Shown here: positions 42,684-57,734 of the stretch, piece after piece
Position numbering within the stretch: the first letter of the stretch is position 1
Layout of the letters: each line of letters opens with the position of its first letter
Source of the DNA: the human T2T-CHM13v2.0 reference genome, Homo sapiens
Reading direction: 5' to 3' (one strand)
Assembly (NCBI RefSeq): GCF_009914755.1
Contig: NC_060931.1
Length of the DNA: 64,000 nucleotides
Translations under genes and position numbers: made by a program
Notes under the pieces: model-generated
Seen by the model: only the letters and a program-made list of their open reading frames with translations
What the model was told of the DNA's origin: nothing
Database searches by the model: none

Positions 42684-43217
<534 letters not shown>

Positions 43218-43415
43218 TGATGTCTTCACATTTAAACCCAGTGGTCTGGATTGAGAGCTGTTAGCATTTCACCTTGCTACCCCTTCCATGTCTGGGCTTC
43301 TGAGAGCAGCTTGCTCATCCTGAATGTCCCCAATCTAGAAAGCAGCACACCATGCCTTTCATCCAGACGCCCCACACCCCCAGAAGAGGGTCTGCTCATT
43401 CCTCATCTCTTCCAG

Positions 43416-43616
43416 CTGTCACAACCACCACCACCTGGAGGCCCAGCAGCACAACCACCATAGCCGGCCTCAGGGTCACAGAAAGCAAAGGGCACTCAGA
43501 ATCATGGCACCTAAGTCTGGACACTGCCATCAGGGTTGCATTGGCTGTCGCTGTGCTCAAAACTGTCATTTTGGGACTGCTGTGCCTCCTCCTCCTGTGG
43601 TGGAGGAGAAGGAAAG
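43416..43616 (+). CDS. PILRB: PILRB coding exon 3, Thr-rich stalk and transmembrane helix with Lys (DAP12 pairing)
   Basis: AVTTTTTWRPSS...VALAVAVLKTVILGLLCLLLLWWRRRK. Lys codon at 43559-43561. Confidence 0.96.
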
Positions 43617-43686
43617 GTAAGTGCCCAGAACGCACTGTCTCCTCAAGCTTCCCAGCTGGGGGTTTCTCTGAGCCCACCTGCAGCTA

Positions 43687-43881
<195 letters not shown>

Positions 43882-43900
43882 TCACAAGGCCAAGAGATCA

Positions 43901-44175
<275 letters not shown>

Positions 44176-44858
44176 TCATCAATCATCCACGCTCCCCTGA
44201 AGGTTCCTGGGGAGGGGAGGGCCTGCCCTGGGAAAAGAACAGAGAGAGGAGAAGGGACCAGAATTGGGCTGAGCTCAGCAGGCACTGGCTGACTGCCCTC
44301 CTGCCACGGCCTGGCTTGAAACTGGAGAAGCAAAGTATATAAAGCATAGGCTCTGCTCTCAGGGAACTGGGGGTGTGGAGTTGTCAGTTGCCTCAAGGAC
44401 TAATTGCTTCATTGAGAAAGAACTATGGTATTGCTAAACAAGGGTGGGAGGAGAGAGAGGTAATCAGGGAGGACTTCCCACAGGAGGTGGCATCTGCAGA
44501 TGTCTCAAAAAAGAAAAGAATTAGCCTGGCAAGAGGTGAGGATTGTGTAGAGGTCACTCACTTTCCTTGTGGGTGGAGGAAACCATTCCAGGAGCTGTAG
44601 GAAGCTTGGTGCTGGTGAAGGAGGCAGGAGAGGAGAGAAGAGGAGATGACCTTAGAAATCACATCCAAGAGCCTCTGATCCCAGAGGCAGCGTGAGGCAG
44701 CAAAGGGTGACCTCAGTTCCCCATGAGAGACCTCAGTCTATGGAGGAATGGCCAGAGGTGGGCCAGGCTGGGTCAGTGCAGTGCAGGAGTGAGGTGGAGA
44801 GAGGGAAAGGGCCAGATCCTAGAAAAGATTAAGTAATAAAAACCAATGAGATTGTTAG

Positions 44859-45188
<330 letters not shown>

Positions 45189-46229
45189 TAGTTTTAGTAG
45201 AGACGGGGTTTCACTCTGTTAGCCAGGATGGTCTCGATCTCCTGACCTCGTGATCCGCCTGCCTCGGCCTTCCAAAGTGCTGGGATTACAGGCTTGAGCC
45301 ACCGCACCCGGCCAGTTTGGAATCTGTTATACGGGAGATCCATGTGTGGCATCTCAGCAGAGTTGTCCATTGGAAACTTGGATGTACACATTTCCAGTTC
45401 AAAAGAGAGGACAAGGCTCCAGGCAGCAATGAGTTCTACCTCAATATCCTCCAAACCTGACAGTAAGTTACCATCAAGAAAGTCTTCAGGCCAGGCACGG
45501 TGGCTAATGCCTATAATCCCAGCACCTTGGGAGGCCAAGGCGGCTGGATCACCTGAGGTCAGGCGTTCAAGACCAGCCTGGCCAAAATGGTGAAACCCCA
45601 TCTCAATTAAAAACACAAAAAATTAGCCAGGCATGGTGGCCGACACCTGTAGTCCAAGCTACTCAGGAAGCTGAGGCAGGAGAATTGCTTGAACCCAGGA
45701 GGTGGAGGCTGCAGTGAGCCGAGATGGTGACACTGCACTCCAGCCTGGCTGATAGAGCGAGACTCCATCTATAAAAAGTAAAAAAGAAAGTCTTCAGTGA
45801 AAGGAGATTCGCCCTATCAGCTATGAAAGCACAGAGGGGAGGAACATGGAGTAGGGGCTGCCTGCAGTCAGATCCTGCCCTCACAACCTTGCCAGGGAAA
45901 CAGGCTCGTGGGTACAAAGGTTGTGTGCCTCAACTTCCTCATGGAAGCACGTGAGATTATTTTATAACCATAGAGTGGAGACAGTCAGTATGACCACCAA
46001 ACCCAGGAGCCATATATTAAAATACTGATAAATTTAACTATATAAAAAAATTTTTGCCGGGTGCGGTGGCTCACACCTGTGATTCTAGCAGAAAATCAGA
46101 TCAGGAGATCACAGAAGGTCAAGGAACTACTGAGAGAGCAGGAATGGAGAGCAGGGGGGTCAGCAGGAAGCTTGGAGAATCTGCAAAATAGTAGATTACA
46201 AAGGATCAAAAGTCAGTGAGGTTCAACAA

Positions 46230-50025
<3,796 letters not shown>

Positions 50026-50053
50026 TGGTTTTTTTTTTTTTTTTTTTTTTTAG

Positions 50054-50245
<192 letters not shown>

Positions 50246-51171
50246 TGATCTCGAACTCCTGACCTCAGGTGATCTGCCCACCTTGGCCTCCCAATCCTGG
50301 GATTATCACCGCGTGAGCCACCGCACCCACCTTAGGTGTTAGGCTGGAAGGAGTGAAAGTTGCAATATGAAAATGATACTAGCAGTTAATATTTCAGAGT
50401 TCCCAGTCCCAACATTAAAAAACAAAAAACCTGTAGAAGTGGAAGGGGAGGTCCCTGGAGTTGAGGGGTGCCGTGAGGCCTGGGTTCAGAGGGTGTCTCT
50501 GTGGACGTGGAGCCCTCCCAGGAGGGGGCTGGATGGTGGAGGGGATGTCTGTGGACCAGGAGCCCAGTGCTTGGGAAACACTGCAAGGATGCCAGGGGGA
50601 CAAGAGGGGCAGGGCACAGTGGGAGAGGCAGCAGAGGATTCAGGGTGAGACCAGCCAGAGGGGAGGGGAGGCCTAGAGGTGGCAACAGAACTTGAACAGC
50701 CACAAACATGAGTCCCAAGCATGAGGCTCCCAAGGCTGGAGGGCAGACACAGCCGCCACCCAGAAGGAAACCACAGGCGCGGTCTCCCTGAGGACCTGGA
50801 GGGAGAGGTGGGGGTGCCTATGTCAAGGGAAGGGGAGGGAAGGAAGAGATGGGTGGGCGAGGGCTCAGCGATAGAGGGAGCCAGGTTGGGGCTGAGCAGA
50901 GAGCTCAAGAGCGAAGGAAGCCAACAGAGGGTAGCAAGGTTTTGCGGGGGCGGTTTCAGGAGATGACGTGGTGGACAACAGGGAGAACAGGTCGGGGGGG
51001 AGCCTCAGGGTGCCAGCTGAGTCCCAGGCCCTTCCTGATGGGTTTGGGCAGAGCTGATCTGCTGCTCTGGTCCCTCTAAGGAGGGCCTCAGCCTAGGGCG
51101 CAGCAGAGAAGGTGGGATGGAGACTGCTATCACCTGGATGCCACCCTGACTCACTGTTGGTCCCCCTACAC

Positions 51172-51205
51172 GTCAGCAGCGGACTAAAGCCACAACCCCA
51201 GCCAG
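51172..51205 (+). pseudogene. Fossil PILRA-type cytoplasmic exon (GQQRTKATTPAR) in PILRB intron 3
   Basis: Matches the recalled PILRA juxtamembrane sequence in the correct phase. Flanks are ctacAC| and |CTgagt. Confidence 0.85.
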
Positions 51206-51399
51206 CTGAGTGCTGGGCCTCCCCAAGGGAGTGGGGAGTACAGGTGCGGGCAGGGGACGGGTTTGGAAATCAGGGACTGTGCTGCTAAGAACCCCACAAG
51301 CCCAGCCTGCCACAAATTCTCCTGAGTTTTTGCCACCTCCCACTTAAATCTGATCTCTGAAGCAACTGCCTCGCCTGCCTCACTAATAATCCTGGCCCT

Positions 51400-51755
51400 G
51401 CATCTAAAAACACTTCCCCTCCTGCAGGTAGCAGGGCGCCAAGCAGTGACTTCTGACCAACAGAGTGTGGGGAGAAGGGATGTGTATTAGCCCCGGAGGA
51501 CGTGATGTGAGACCCGCTTGTGAGTCCTCCACACTCGTTCCCCATTGGCAAGATACATGGAGAGCACCCTGAGGACCTTTAAAAGGCAAAGCCGCAAGGC
51601 AGAAGGAGGCTGGGTCCCTGAATCACCGACTGGAGGAGAGTTACCTACAAGAGCCTTCATCCAGGAGCATCCACACTGCAATGATATAGGAATGAGGTCT
51701 GAACTCCACTGAATTAAACCACTGGCATTTGGGGGCTGTTTATTATAGCAGTGCA
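51400..51755 (+). mobile_element. MLT1-type MaLR LTR overlapping the PILRB last exon
   Basis: Motifs gtgacttctgaccaacagagtgt...gaagggatgtg, ctgggtccctgaatcacc..tggag and aaaccactggcatttgggggctgtttattatagca. Confidence 0.65.
51428..51456 (+). CDS. PILRB: PILRB last coding exon (GSRAPSSDF*); 3'UTR to about 51910
   Basis: cctgcag| acceptor. 64+390+201+29 = 684 nt = 227 aa plus stop. AATAAA at 51884-51889. Confidence 0.93.
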
Positions 51756-52048
51756 AAGAGTTCCTTTATCCTCCCCAAGGATGGAAAAATACAATTTATT
51801 TTGCTTACCATACACCCCTTTTCTCCTCGTCCACATTTTCCAATCTGTATGGTGGCTGTCTTCTATGGCAGAAGGTTTTGGGGAATAAATAGCGTGAAAT
51901 GCTGCTGACACTTCCCTGTGCATCTCCCACATGGCTGCCAAGTGCCCCTTCCTGCTCTGCAGTACCTGAGTCCAGTCATGATGCAGGGAGCCTCCCCACT
52001 AGAAACAGATGGCACTCACAGATTTAAAGCAGTTGGAAGCAAGTTTAA

Positions 52049-52995
<947 letters not shown>

Positions 52996-54011
52996 GGGCC
53001 AGGCACAGTGGCTCATGACTGTAATCCCAGCACATTTTGAGGCTGAGGTGGGAGAATCAATTGAGCCCTCAGGTGGCAACTGAGGCTGCAGTGAGTTGTG
53101 ATTGCACCACTGTACTCCAGCCTGGGTGACAGAGAGAGAGCCTGTCTCAAAAAAAAAAGACAAAACAAAAAACCTGGCCAATACGGTGAAACCCCATCTC
53201 TACTGAAAATGATCGTCACCTGATCCCCACCCCTTGAAGATGCCTCCACCCTCTCCATACGCATTTGGTCAGCACTAACTGCCCTGGGTGACAGGCACAC
53301 TGCACTGGGTGACAAGGACCCAAAGCTACACCAGCCAGTGCCCCAGCCCTCAAGCACCTCCCTGTGCAGAAGGAAGACAACACAGAAAAGGGAAGCATGG
53401 TTGTCACAGAGGCCCAGAGGACTGCTGGCTGATGTCACTGAATGGGGAAGTGGTTGGCCGCACAGGCCCCAAGCTCAGACCTGATGCCACAGTGGACGTT
53501 CCTGGGCCATGTGACCTCAGGCTAGGCTCAGAACCACCCTCAGGGCCTCCGTTTCTTTCTGTATAAATTGAGGACCATACAGAGATGCTGCCTACCTCCT
53601 GGGATTGTCCAGAGAGTTAAAAGCTCTTTTAAAATGCGCCTGCTGGGCCAGGCACAGTGTCTCACACCTGTAATCCCAGCACTTTGGGAGGCTGAGGCAG
53701 GCAGATCACAAGGTCAGGAGGTCGAGACCAGCCTGAACAACATAGCAAAGCTCCATCTCTACTAAAAATACAAAAAGTAGCCGGGCGGGCATGGTGGCAC
53801 GTGCCTGTAATCCCAGCTACTCAGGAGGCTGAGGCAGGAGAATCACTTGAACTCAGGAAGTGGAAGTTGCAGTGAGCCGAGATTGTACCATTGCACTCCA
53901 GCCTGGGTGACAGAGCGAGACTCCGTCTCAAAAAATAAAAATAAATCAAATGCACCTGCTGGCAGGGCGCGGTGGTTCATGCCTGTAATCTCAGCAACTT
54001 TGGGAGGCCTA

Positions 54012-55075
<1,064 letters not shown>

Positions 55076-57734
55076 GGGGCTTGGTGAGGTGGCTCACACC
55101 TGTCATCCCAGCACTGAGGGAGGCCGAGGCAGGAGGATTGCTTAAGCCCAGGAACTTGAGACCAGCCTAGACAACATAGTGAGACCCCATCTCTCAAAAA
55201 AAAAAAAAAATTAGCCGTGTGTGGTGGTGTGTGCCTGTGGTCTTCACTACTTGGGAGGCTGAGGTCAGCAAATTGCTTCAGCCCAGGAGTGATGGTGATC
55301 GCGTCCCTACACTCCAGTCTGTGGACACTCTAGTACCTTGAGGACAGTACAGCCTGATTACAGAAGCTTTACAGCAAGTCTTGAAGTCAGGTATTATAAA
55401 TCTTCCACCTTCATTCTTCATTTGTAAAGGCCTTTTGGCTATTCTAGGTCCTTTGAATTACTGTGAGAATATTACAGTTGGCTTGTGAACTCCACAAAGC
55501 CTATGGGATGTCGATTGGGATCAGAGGAAAGCAGGAACGGTGGGTGCCAAGGAGAGGTGAGGGGCTGGGGGCAGGGACGGATGTGGCCAGTGAGGACAGT
55601 AGGATACTTGTTGGGGGAATGTGGGGACATCCAAGCAGTGGTTCTCATAATGCGGTGCAGGGTACTTACCCCCTCCCTGCCCCTGCTCCCCACACACGAC
55701 TTCCCACGCCTCTCCCATGAGCACCTGCACTAAGGGGCTGCATTTAGGCTCTGCCCACATTGGAATCATGCCCTCCTCCAGGCCCTCCTCCTCCTCTCAG
55801 AAGCCCTGTCTGTGAGAGAGCCACAGCCCCAGGCTCAGTCCCAGGTTCTGTCACTGCTGTTGGGGGAGGGAGGATGAACAAATCCAGGAGACCTCACACC
55901 ATCCCAGAGCAGAAATCCTGACACAGAAGGAATCTCCCATGGGGGTTCAGCTGGATCCAGGGCCTGAAAGTGACATAAACATGCATGTTGCATCTAAGGA
56001 GACTGCACGTGGCAGCATTGGGCAGCATGTGCCCTCCAGAGCTACCCAGAGGCTGTTGGCTATAAGTTCTATGTGGCCCCCACATTGGACAGCCTGGTAA
56101 GCAGGTGACCTTTCAGCCAGGTCCTCAGGTGGGGCGGGCCACCCTCTCGAGGCCCTGCCCAGACAGCCAGGGGGTCCCTTGTCCTCTCTGCAGCCCATCT
56201 TTCCAGCTGTGACCAGTTCAGCCCAAAGCCCCCGTCCCTCAGTTTCCCTGTGGGTTGAATGGAGATAATGTGTCACCTCAGAATGTTGTGAAGCAGAGAA
56301 TGAGGTGTTTAGGGCCTGGCTCAGACGGAGGGGTTTCCTGAGCATGGGGAACCTGTTTCCTCAGGCCTGTAAAGGGAGGGAGGGCGGGCCGGCCTGGCTG
56401 GCCCTGGGAAGCACAGAGGAGCCTACTAGGACCAGGGAAGAGACTAAGAGAAGGGAGGCCCGTCCCTGCCTGCTTCTGTCTCAAGAAGGCTGATGTCACT
56501 TCCTCTGATGAAATCCTGTCTTCCCCCACGGCCCCTCAACTGATGCCACCTCACCCTGGAGAGGGTGGGCAGAGCCTCCTACGGAGGGAGCCCTGTGCAC
56601 CACCAAAGCTCCCTGCTCCAGTGACCACCCCCGGGCAAAGGCCGGCAGATCCCCGTTAGAGATGGGCCCAGGACTGTGTGTGGGGTGGGTGTTGCTCTGA
56701 GCCTTCACTTTCTTCTGTGTCCAAGGAAGCTTCTGGATCAGCCAAGGGCTCAGGTGTGTGGAGGGAATGACCTGAGGGGCTGTATGAAGGGACAGCCTCC
56801 TGTCCTGCACTCAGAAGTTGAGGCCCAGAGATTCCACCCTTCAGCCAGGCCCAGACATCTGGGTTGAGGGGGCTCCAGTCCTGTACCCACTACTGCAAGT
56901 CACGTGGCCTGGGGCAGGGCTTCTCAGAGCCCTGTCCCCTCCTGTGTAGGGCGGGACGTCAGAGGGGAGCCTGCAGACCCAGTCTCATGTCTTGGGGGTC
57001 AAGGGGTGGCTTCCAGAAGGACCAGTCTCTGTGTAGGGGACCATTAGCCCCCTCACCCCTTGAGCAAGGTCGTGGTGCCTGCACCGAGAGAGGGCCTGGG
57101 GCAGGAAGAGGCCAGCTGGGTCGTGGTGGTGCCTGGGGACTGCATGGGAGCCCCTGCCAGGGAGGGAGAGGGACAGAGGACAAGCTGGGGGCTCTTCTGC
57201 TTGGGCTGGGGGCTGAGCACCTGTGACCTCCACCGGCTTCCTTCTCCTCCTCTCTGAGGACTGAATCTGGGGCGCAGAAGGACAGAGATTCAGGCCTGCC
57301 TTTCCTCTCCCTGAAAGAGCCTGCGCTGGCCCTGGGCAGAGAGAAGGATGAGAAGTGAGGCTGAGTGAGGTGGGGTCTGCAGGGATCCAGGTGGGAGGGG
57401 CCCAGCCAGCCAAGGTCAGGCCCAGCCCCCCAAGGTCAGGCCCAGCCCCTCGGCAGGAGGACGGGGACCGCGGCCTTTGGGCAGGGCTGACTTGGCACTG
57501 ACCACAAGGGAGGCCCTTTTGCAATAGGGGAAAATAAGCCAGATGGATAAAGGAAGTGCTGGTCACCCTGGAGGTGCACTGGTTTGGGGAAGGCTCCTGG
57601 CCCCCACAGCCCTCTTCGGAGCCTGAGCCCGGCTCTCCTCACTCACCTCAACCCCCAGGCGGCCCCTCCACAGGGCCCCTCTCCTGCCTGGACGGCTCTG
57701 CTGGTCTCCCCGTCCCCTGGAGAAGAACAAGGCC

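What the first reader, a model, noticed from the sequence alone, without database searches (positions are those of the whole stretch)
51160..51212. Fossil inhibitory-tail exon in PILRB with both splice sites inactivated
Seen: 34 bp reading (G)QQRTKATTPA(R) in the phase that would follow PILRB exon 3. It is flanked by ccccctacAC| in place of AG| and |CTgagt in place of GTgagt, two G>C changes, while the exon body is intact. Known: RRRKGQQRTKATTPAR begins the ITIM-bearing PILRA tail. Inference: PILRB came from a PILRA-like inhibitory gene and lost the tail by splice-site loss. An intact body with both ends hit suggests selection against inclusion, or recent gene conversion that spared those two bases.
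Basis: partly seen in the sequence, partly recalled or inferred. Interest (0 to 1): 0.85.

Follow-up and report, generated by a model that had tools for sequence, protein, structure and literature searches.

The report
Dead juxtamembrane exon in human PILRB
Human PILRB still carries a letter-perfect copy of the small exon 4 of its neighbour PILRA, but both splice signals are broken, so the exon is skipped; it never carried the inhibitory motif, so this is a tidy recent exon loss and not the way PILRB lost its inhibitory tail.

Summary
Window 51172-51205 is 34/34 identical to PILRA exon 4 (GQQRTKATTPAR), has the same length and phase, and sits in collinear intron homology. PILRA has AG|..|GT where PILRB has AC|..|CT.

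- Exon 4 has no tyrosine. The ITIM lies in PILRA exon 7.
- PILRA exons 5-7 have no counterpart at the PILRB locus. Paralogy stops 108 bp after the fossil exon, and the PILRB terminal exon is unique DNA.
- Gene models of PILRB in gibbon, macaques, snub-nosed monkey, horse, camel and alpaca include this exon and still lack an ITIM.

So splice-site loss did not remove the inhibitory tail. It silenced an ordinary PILRB exon, probably after the gibbon split. The human tail changed from ...KGQQRTKATTPAR to ...KGSRAPSSDF.

The intact body fits recency plus the gene conversion that pervades this locus. Two of the four differences in a 157-bp near-identical patch fall on splice bases (post hoc p about 0.004). 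That is unexplained and leaves selection or conversion escape open. No ape DNA was available to date the changes.

The parts
51172..51205 (+). Fossil exon body (34 bp), paralogue of PILRA exon 4. In phase 1 it reads (G)QQRTKATTPA(R).
   Evidence: 34/34 identity to chr7:101637956-101637989. Translation. PILRA exon 4 peptide.
51170..51171 (+). Former 3' splice site, now AC (PILRA has AG). The difference is C in PILRB against G in PILRA at 51171, and the C creates a CpG.
   Evidence: Of 360 annotated chr7 acceptors sampled, 358 are AG.
51206..51207 (+). Former 5' splice site, now CT (PILRA has GT inside CAG|GTGAGT, 97th percentile). The difference is C in PILRB against G in PILRA at 51206. An in-frame TGA follows at 51207-51209.
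   Evidence: Of 346 donors sampled, none is CT.
51069..51225 (+). 157-bp near-identical patch around the exon, with 4 differences from PILRA: 51128, 51135, 51171 and 51206. Inside 51136-51225 the two splice bases are the only differences.
   Evidence: P(4 or fewer of 157 at the block rate) = 3e-5, or about 0.026 after allowing for 812 window starts.
50355..51313 (+). Block paralogous to the end of PILRA intron 3, exon 4 and the first ~110 bp of intron 4. Detectable paralogy ends at 51313.
   Evidence: blastn 88.8% over 970 columns. Alignment A1.
43416..43616 (+). PILRB exon 3 (stalk, transmembrane helix with Lys, RRRKG). Its donor AAG|GTAAGT now pairs directly with the terminal exon.
   Evidence: RefSeq exons. 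Translation. Donor at the 97th percentile.
51428..51910 (+). PILRB terminal exon in unique DNA. After exon 3 it reads (G)SRAPSSDF*. After the fossil exon it would read (R)*. A second, weak acceptor lies at 51463|51464. After exon 4, that acceptor gives the tail seen in Old World monkey models.
   Evidence: Acceptor scores (12.1 bits at 51428, 4.3 bits at 51464).
51243..51245 (+). PILRB-specific cryptic donor CAG|GTGCGG (64th percentile), 38 nt past the dead donor. PILRA has T at the position of 51243.

Best explanation
This is a recently silenced cassette exon.

PILRB and PILRA share exons 1-4. After exon 4, PILRB has its own terminal exon and PILRA has exons 5-7, with the ITIM in exon 7. In PILRB gene models of other catarrhines and several other mammals, exon 4 is spliced between the transmembrane exon and the terminal exon.

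On the lineage to humans, inferred to be after the split from gibbons, G>C changes destroyed both the acceptor (AG>AC) and the donor (GT>CT). The spliceosome can no longer define the 34-nt exon. Exon 3 is joined directly to the terminal exon, the reading frame there shifts, and the cytoplasmic tail becomes ...RRRKG-SRAPSSDF instead of ...RRRKG-QQRTKATTPAR.

The exon body is intact for two reasons. Little time has passed. The locus is also repeatedly homogenised with PILRA by gene conversion, and a 157-bp patch around the exon differs at only 4 sites.

Shown: the homology, the two changes, the absence of ITIM exons, the frame consequences, and the outgroup protein models. Inferred: the timing, that the exon is fully skipped in cells, and that the second hit followed the first either neutrally or because it removed leaky cryptic splicing.
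For: - Identity and flanks.
- Only two copies in the genome.
- Phase and predicted products.
- Strong ancestral-type sites in PILRA (donor 12.8 bits, 97th percentile; acceptor 11.0 bits, 68th) against non-canonical AC/CT in PILRB.
- 0 of 4 RefSeq transcripts spanning the site have an exon within 51100-51320.
- Outgroups: of 33 protein clusters with a Lys-bearing transmembrane helix, 12 carry an exon-4-like segment. Eight of the 12 have no ITIM: Nomascus P0009 ends ...RRRKGQQRTKATTPAR; Macaca P0019 and P0020 and Rhinopithecus P0013 continue ...TTPARVW(R/G)(D/E)GMCISP...; the others are Przewalski horse P0055, Bactrian camel P0072 and alpaca P0079 and P0080.
- The monkey tails are encoded in the human PILRB terminal exon in the +1 frame. 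Those models must therefore use the PILRB-locus copy of exon 4, not the downstream PILRA copy.
- Gene conversion at the locus: the Ig-domain tree of 20 primate sequences groups PILRA and PILRB by lineage, not by gene (6 label changes; shuffled mean 6.0). Within-species A/B identity is 91.5-98.5%, against 86.2% for human versus gibbon PILRB.
- Patch statistics.
Against: - The outgroup evidence is predicted proteins (mostly Gnomon or Ensembl models). It is not DNA or RNA that I could inspect.
- No chimpanzee, gorilla or orangutan DNA was reachable, so the changes are not dated within the great apes. The only chimpanzee PILRB cluster seen (P0002) is an intron-3-retention form.
- Squirrel monkey PILRB P0045 skips exon 4 (...RRKDRRAPSSDFGPTQ...). 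Skipping may therefore be an old alternative form and not a human novelty.
- 21 of the 33 Lys-transmembrane clusters lack the segment (intron retention, other exons, or ending right after exon 3).
- Two hits on 4 essential bases, with only 2 other differences in 157 bp (p about 0.004), are not explained by recency alone.
- No RNA data were available to show that inclusion in human cells is zero.
Confidence: 0.75

Rival explanations
1. One reading: PILRB lost its ITIM-bearing inhibitory tail because this exon's splice sites were lost.
For: The exon is the first cytoplasmic exon of the PILRA tail and is disabled in PILRB.
Against: The exon has no tyrosine or ITIM. There are no homologues of exons 5-7 at the PILRB locus. 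Paralogy ends at 51313. Inclusion would give a stop after one more codon. PILRB models that include exon 4 in 8 clusters are still ITIM-less.
Confidence: 0.04
2. Adaptive silencing. Inclusion, or leaky cryptic inclusion after the first hit, was selected against, so the second G>C was fixed by selection. This produced a great-ape-specific short PILRB tail.
For: Two of 4 differences in the 157-bp patch are on the 4 canonical bases (p=0.0038). Inside 51136-51225 they are the only differences. A single hit could be leaky. With only the acceptor lost, an AG 5 nt downstream scores 4.4 bits (6th percentile) next to a 97th-percentile donor. With only the donor lost, a 64th-percentile cryptic donor lies 38 nt downstream.
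Against: The statistic is post hoc on a hand-picked site. The gibbon model carries the included form without apparent harm. No function is known for the 11 residues. Both alternative tails are short and motif-less.
Confidence: 0.13
3. A recent PILRA-to-PILRB conversion tract re-copied the patch, but the two older G/C sites escaped. For example, C·C/G·G heteroduplex mismatches are poorly repaired (recalled knowledge). Alternatively, tracts that restored the sites were not fixed.
For: Conversion is rampant at the locus. The patch has a sharp right edge: 17 differences in the next 52 bp, p=5e-5. Both spared sites are the same rare class, C/G, which makes up 11 of 92 substitutions in the block.
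Against: It needs two separate escapes in one tract. The patch is only marginally significant after multiple testing (0.026), and other 100-bp windows of the block have only 5 differences. There is no outgroup DNA to show that AC/CT predate the patch.
Confidence: 0.07
4. The exon is still used through non-canonical (for example AT-AC type) splicing, or AC/CT are errors or private variants of this assembly.
For: AC is the 3' end of U12 AT-AC introns; one such pair appeared in the chr7 sample.
Against: The upstream intron begins GTAAGT, not AT. The downstream intron would begin CT, seen in 0 of 346 donors. RefSeq mRNAs derived from other sources skip the exon and encode the 227-aa protein that this assembly encodes.
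Confidence: 0.01

Closest known systems
PILRA exon 4 (NM_013439.3; chr7:101637956-101637989)
   Same: Identical 34-nt body, same phase, homologous flanking introns, same position after the transmembrane exon.
   Different: PILRA has AG/GT and uses the exon. The PILRB copy has AC/CT and is in no RefSeq transcript. Downstream of it PILRA has exons 5-7 and PILRB has unrelated DNA.
PILRB exon 4 as modelled in gibbon, macaque, Rhinopithecus, horse and camelids
   Same: Same segment after a Lys-bearing transmembrane helix, followed by a PILRB-specific ending. The gibbon end ...TTPAR equals the product predicted if the human fossil were spliced.
   Different: Those are predicted proteins with the exon included. 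The human copy cannot be spliced canonically.
[quoted passage not shown]
   Same: An activating member of a pair keeps untranslated sequence homologous to its inhibitory partner's cytoplasmic part. Passage read in the Introduction of PMC2211832.
   Different: Here the relic holds no ITIM and lies in an intron as a pseudoexon, not in a 3'UTR behind a premature stop.
Concerted evolution of the PILR locus (Wilson et al. 2006, Physiol Genomics 27:201)
   Same: Duplication and gene conversion between PILRA and PILRB in mammals. I saw only the title in reference lists and one sentence about it in the Discussion of PMC2077338. My Ig-domain tree agrees.
   Different: The paper is not held, so I could not check whether it already describes this pseudoexon.

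Membership tests
Paralogue of PILRA exon 4 | Sequence identity of the exon body | tested here: met
   34/34
Paralogue of PILRA exon 4 | Collinear homology of the introns on both sides | tested here: met
   Window 50355-51313 matches PILRA 101637142-101638099 at 88.8%. Further collinear blocks lie upstream in intron 3.
Paralogue of PILRA exon 4 | Same length and reading phase after the transmembrane exon | tested here: met
   34 nt; both genes are in phase 1 after exon 3 (655 and 673 nt).
Functional exon | Canonical AG acceptor and GT (or GC) donor | tested here: not met
   AC and CT. 358 of 360 acceptors are AG and 344 of 346 donors are GT in the chr7 sample.
Functional exon | Present in annotated transcripts | tested here: not met
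   0 of 4 RefSeq transcripts spanning it. GENCODE and RNA-seq were not available.
ITIM-bearing inhibitory tail | Contains (I/V/L/S)xYxx(L/V/I) | tested here: not met
   GQQRTKATTPAR has no Tyr. IVYASL (aa 267) and TLYSVL are in PILRA exon 7.
ITIM-bearing inhibitory tail | Homologues of the ITIM exons (PILRA exons 5-7) present at the locus | tested here: not met
   Sensitive blastn (word size 7) of exons 5-7 with 30-nt flanks against window 43600-55400 gave only chance-level short hits and Alu matches to the exon 7 UTR.
Lineage-specific exon loss by splice-site mutation | Exon used by orthologues in outgroups | tested here: inconclusive
   Met at the level of predicted proteins: 8 ITIM-less Lys-transmembrane clusters with the segment. 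No outgroup DNA or RNA could be inspected. Saimiri P0045 skips it.
Lineage-specific exon loss by splice-site mutation | The mutations are derived on the focal lineage and can be dated | not testable with these tools
   No primate genomes in any collection offered.
Gene-conversion tract | Local identity well above the flanks, with sharp edges | tested here: met
   4 of 157 differences against 113 of 969 overall. 17 of the next 52 bp differ. After correction p is about 0.026.
Gene-conversion tract | Paralogues within a species closer than orthologues between species | tested here: inconclusive
   Met for the Ig exon. Not testable for this patch without outgroup DNA.
U12 AT-AC intron | 5' AT paired with 3' AC | tested here: not met
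   The upstream intron starts GTAAGT.

The most novel reading that the evidence does not exclude
The double G>C knockout is not drift. Either it was selected in great apes to enforce a new, shorter cytoplasmic tail on the activating receptor PILRB, with clean skipping instead of leaky cryptic exons. Or it marks two sites that repeatedly escaped PILRA-to-PILRB conversion because restoring them was disfavoured. Either way this would be a small, datable, functionally motivated change in a human innate immune receptor that sits in a disease-associated locus.
Probability: 0.15. Interest if true: 0.5.

Novelty: new member of a known kind. Interest (0 to 1): 0.3.

Why it matters
It corrects an attractive but wrong story: the inhibitory tail was not lost here. 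It shows that the human PILRB cytoplasmic tail (SRAPSSDF) probably differs from that modelled for gibbons and Old World monkeys because of a recent exon loss. That matters when macaque or other models are used for PILRB biology. It also gives a clean case for measuring how gene conversion and splice-site decay interact in paired immune receptors. In itself it is an ordinary kind of event, a pseudoexon in a duplicated, conversion-prone gene.

Tried and rejected
- Origin of the PILRB terminal exon. Window 51314-52050 has no other copy in the genome beyond three short weak hits. It has none in the window or in PILRA 101611001-101641500.
- Hidden ITIM exons. None found.
- RNA families. 0 Rfam matches on either strand of 50300-52000 at E up to 1.
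- Age of the terminal exon. The alpaca tail against the monkey tail gave a local score of 30, reached by 47 of 2000 shuffles. This is only suggestive, and I do not rely on it.
- Literature. Six full-text searches found nothing on a PILRB pseudoexon or exon-4 loss. Wilson 2006 and Mousseau 2000 are not held, so I cannot say it is unpublished. Supplements were not consulted (closed) and none seemed relevant.
- Further protein searches. At 90% clustering, great-ape PILRB isoforms fall into the clusters already seen, so the dating question would not be answered.
- Regex limitation. The regex classification missed two Lys-transmembrane proteins that also carry an exon-4-like segment (P0059 and P0107, visible). 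They are not in the 12 of 33 count.
- Limits of the position matrix. The matrix is home-made from 344 donors and 358 acceptors. It is not MaxEntScan, so its percentiles are rough.

Full report
**What is in the sequence**

Window 51172-51205 reads GTCAGCAGCGGACTAAAGCCACAACCCCAGCCAG. It is preceded by ...ccccctacAC and followed by CTgagtgc. RefSeq places PILRA exon 4 at chr7:101637956-101637989, also 34 nt. I fetched that region from the same genome. Printed side by side, the two exon bodies are identical, and PILRA has ...ccccctacAG| and |GTgagtgc. The two differences are C in PILRB against G in PILRA at window 51171 and 51206.

PILRB coding exons 1-3 total 655 nt and those of PILRA total 673 nt, so both leave phase 1. 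A scripted splice of PILRB exon 3, the fossil and the terminal exon reads ...RRRKGQQRTKATTPAR followed at once by a stop. PILRA translated from its RefSeq coordinates has GQQRTKATTPAR as exon 4, residues 225-236.

**Homology context**

- PILRB and PILRA are collinear through intron 3. The last block, window 50355-51313 against PILRA 101637142-101638099, is 88.8% identical over 970 columns.
- Homology stops abruptly at 51313, which is 108 bp past the fossil exon.
- The PILRB terminal exon (51428-51910) lies in DNA with no other copy in the genome apart from three short weak hits. It has no counterpart in the window or in PILRA.
- PILRA exons 5, 6 and the coding part of exon 7 have no homologue in window 43600-55400. 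Only Alu matches to the exon 7 UTR appear.
- The exon-4 block itself occurs exactly twice in the genome.
- Rfam finds nothing on either strand of 50300-52000.
- None of the 4 RefSeq transcripts spanning the site has an exon within 51100-51320.

**What the exon is not**

It is not an ITIM exon. It has no tyrosine. IVYASL (aa 267) and TLYSVL sit in PILRA exon 7. Because exons 5-7 are absent from the PILRB locus, restoring the splice sites would not give an inhibitory tail. It would give twelve residues and a stop. The claim that PILRB 'lost the tail by splice-site loss' is therefore not supported.

**What other species do**

A protein search with the Ig exon returned 111 clusters. I read their C-termini. 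Of 33 clusters with a Lys-bearing (activating-type) transmembrane helix, 12 carry an exon-4-like segment right after the stop-transfer motif.

Eight of the 12 have no ITIM:
- Nomascus PILRB P0009 ends ...RRRKGQQRTKATTPAR, exactly the product predicted for the human fossil.
- Macaca mulatta P0019 and M. fascicularis P0020 read ...KGQQQTKATTPARVWRDGMCISP...
- Rhinopithecus P0013 reads ...TTPARVWGEGMCISPGG...
- The others are Przewalski horse P0055, Bactrian camel P0072 and alpaca P0079 and P0080.

The human terminal exon still encodes VWGEGMCISPGGRDVRPACESSTLVPHWQDTWRAP* in its +1 frame. The monkey models therefore splice exon 4 to the PILRB terminal exon and must use the PILRB-locus copy of exon 4, since the PILRA copy lies downstream of that exon.

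Four of the 12 (Microcebus, Kogia, Sturnira, Desmodus) continue into an ITIM tail and may be read-through models.

Against a simple picture:
- Squirrel monkey P0045 skips exon 4 (...RRKDRRAPSSDFGPTQCGDKGYVLTLEDVM, the human +2 frame with the stop replaced).
- 21 of the 33 clusters lack the segment (intron-3 retention, other exons, or ending after exon 3).
- All of these are predicted proteins. I could not inspect their DNA or RNA.

**Why the body is intact**

Two things explain it. First, if gibbon and Old World monkeys use the exon, it was silenced only on the great-ape or human lineage. From recalled divergence times that is under roughly 20 million years, which gives well under one expected substitution in 34 bp.

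Second, the locus undergoes concerted evolution. In a maximum-likelihood tree of the Ig domain of 20 primate PILRA and PILRB sequences, the two genes group by lineage and not by gene. The tree needs 6 label changes, and the shuffled mean is 6.0. Within-species A/B identity is 91.5% in human, 97.7% in macaque and 98.5% in squirrel monkey, against 86.2% for human versus gibbon PILRB. This agrees with the title and the one cited sentence I saw about Wilson et al. 2006; the paper itself is not held.

Around the fossil exon, a 157-bp patch (51069-51225) has only 4 differences from PILRA, against 113 of 969 columns for the whole block. This has p=3e-5, or about 0.026 after allowing for all 812 window starts. 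The next 52 bp hold 17 differences. That looks like a recent conversion tract. However, other 100-bp windows of the block have as few as 5 differences, so I treat the tract as likely, not proven.

**The unexplained residue**

Two of the four differences in the patch fall on the four canonical splice bases (p=0.0038). Within 51136-51225 they are the only differences. Both are C/G transversions, a class that makes up 11 of 92 substitutions in the block. This is post hoc, but it is not what recency alone predicts.

I trained a home-made position matrix on 344 GT donors and 358 AG acceptors from 20 exon-dense chr7 stretches. It gives the following scores:
- The PILRA-type donor is very strong (12.8 bits, 97th percentile) and the acceptor is good (11.0 bits, 68th percentile).
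- With only the acceptor lost, an AG 5 nt downstream (exon start 51177, 4.4 bits, 6th percentile) would face that strong donor.
- With only the donor lost, a PILRB-specific cryptic donor CAG|GTGCGG at 51243|51244 (9.1 bits, 64th percentile) lies 38 nt downstream.

A single hit might therefore have produced leaky aberrant exons, with the second hit cleaning this up. That is an inference, not a result. The alternative is that a conversion tract re-copied the patch while the two C/G sites escaped. From recalled knowledge, C·C mismatches are poorly repaired. This also cannot be excluded.

**Mechanism, as best supported**

Exon definition fails at 51172-51205 because neither end has a usable dinucleotide. 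The strong exon 3 donor (AAG|GTAAGT, 97th percentile) pairs with the strong terminal acceptor at 51428 (12.1 bits, 79th percentile). The terminal exon is then read as (G)SRAPSSDF*, giving the 227-aa human PILRB. Signalling by the activating receptor depends on the transmembrane lysine and DAP12 (passages read in PMC2211832, and PMC13358205). No functional consequence of the tail swap can be claimed.

**Novelty and score**

[quoted passage not shown] Splice-site loss of cassette exons and conversion in PILR are also known kinds of event. My six literature searches found no description of this pseudoexon. The two most relevant papers could not be read.

I rate it a new member of a known kind, with interest 0.3. 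The finding is real and neat.

**What would settle it**

Ape and monkey DNA for this 500-bp stretch would date and order the two changes and test the conversion tract. Also needed are population data for the two sites, junction reads in myeloid RNA, and a four-construct minigene.

Noticed in passing
window 51464-51572: The human PILRB 3'UTR keeps, without a stop, the 35-codon frame VWGEGMCISPGGRDVRPACESSTLVPHWQDTWRAP*. This is the cytoplasmic tail of macaque and Rhinopithecus PILRB models after exon 4. The acceptor those models imply (caacag|A at 51463|51464) is weak in human (4.3 bits, 6th percentile).
   Followed up: partly
window 45292-45462: The alternative in-frame 171-nt PILRB exon (isoform 1, 284 aa, P0001) starts at an Alu-derived acceptor (GGGATTACAG|G, 2.3 bits). 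It lies between two masked repeats. A similar segment appears in a Hylobates 'PILRA isoform X2' model (P0010), and the stretch from 45316 on aligns to PILRA intron 3 (101631923-101632371, 80%).
   Followed up: partly
window 43159-43415 versus chr7:101614512-101629964: Intron 2 is 257 bp in PILRB but 15.4 kb in PILRA, although the flanking exons and intron ends are homologous. This is a large insertion or deletion between the paralogues.
   Followed up: no
proteins P0054, P0064, P0083, P0087: Predicted proteins of mouse lemur, pygmy sperm whale and two bats combine a Lys-bearing (activating-type) transmembrane helix with exon 4 and a full ITIM tail. They are either PILRB-PILRA read-through models or unusual dual-type receptors.
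   Followed up: no
window 42769-43158 (Ig exon) and proteins: The Ig domain of PILRA and PILRB is homogenised within primate lineages (macaque 97.7%, squirrel monkey 98.5% A versus B). Human and chimpanzee PILRB and human and bonobo PILRA form separate pairs, so the last Ig-exon conversion predates the human-chimpanzee split.
   Followed up: yes
window 51226-51277: Immediately after the near-identical patch, 17 of 52 positions differ from PILRA (p=5e-5 at the block rate) in a G-run-rich stretch. One of these differences (G at 51243) creates a good cryptic donor in PILRB.
   Followed up: partly
window 51207-51209: An in-frame TGA directly follows the fossil exon (in PILRA too, as AG|GTGA). Any read-through of the dead donor would therefore end the protein at ...TTPAS*.
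   Followed up: no
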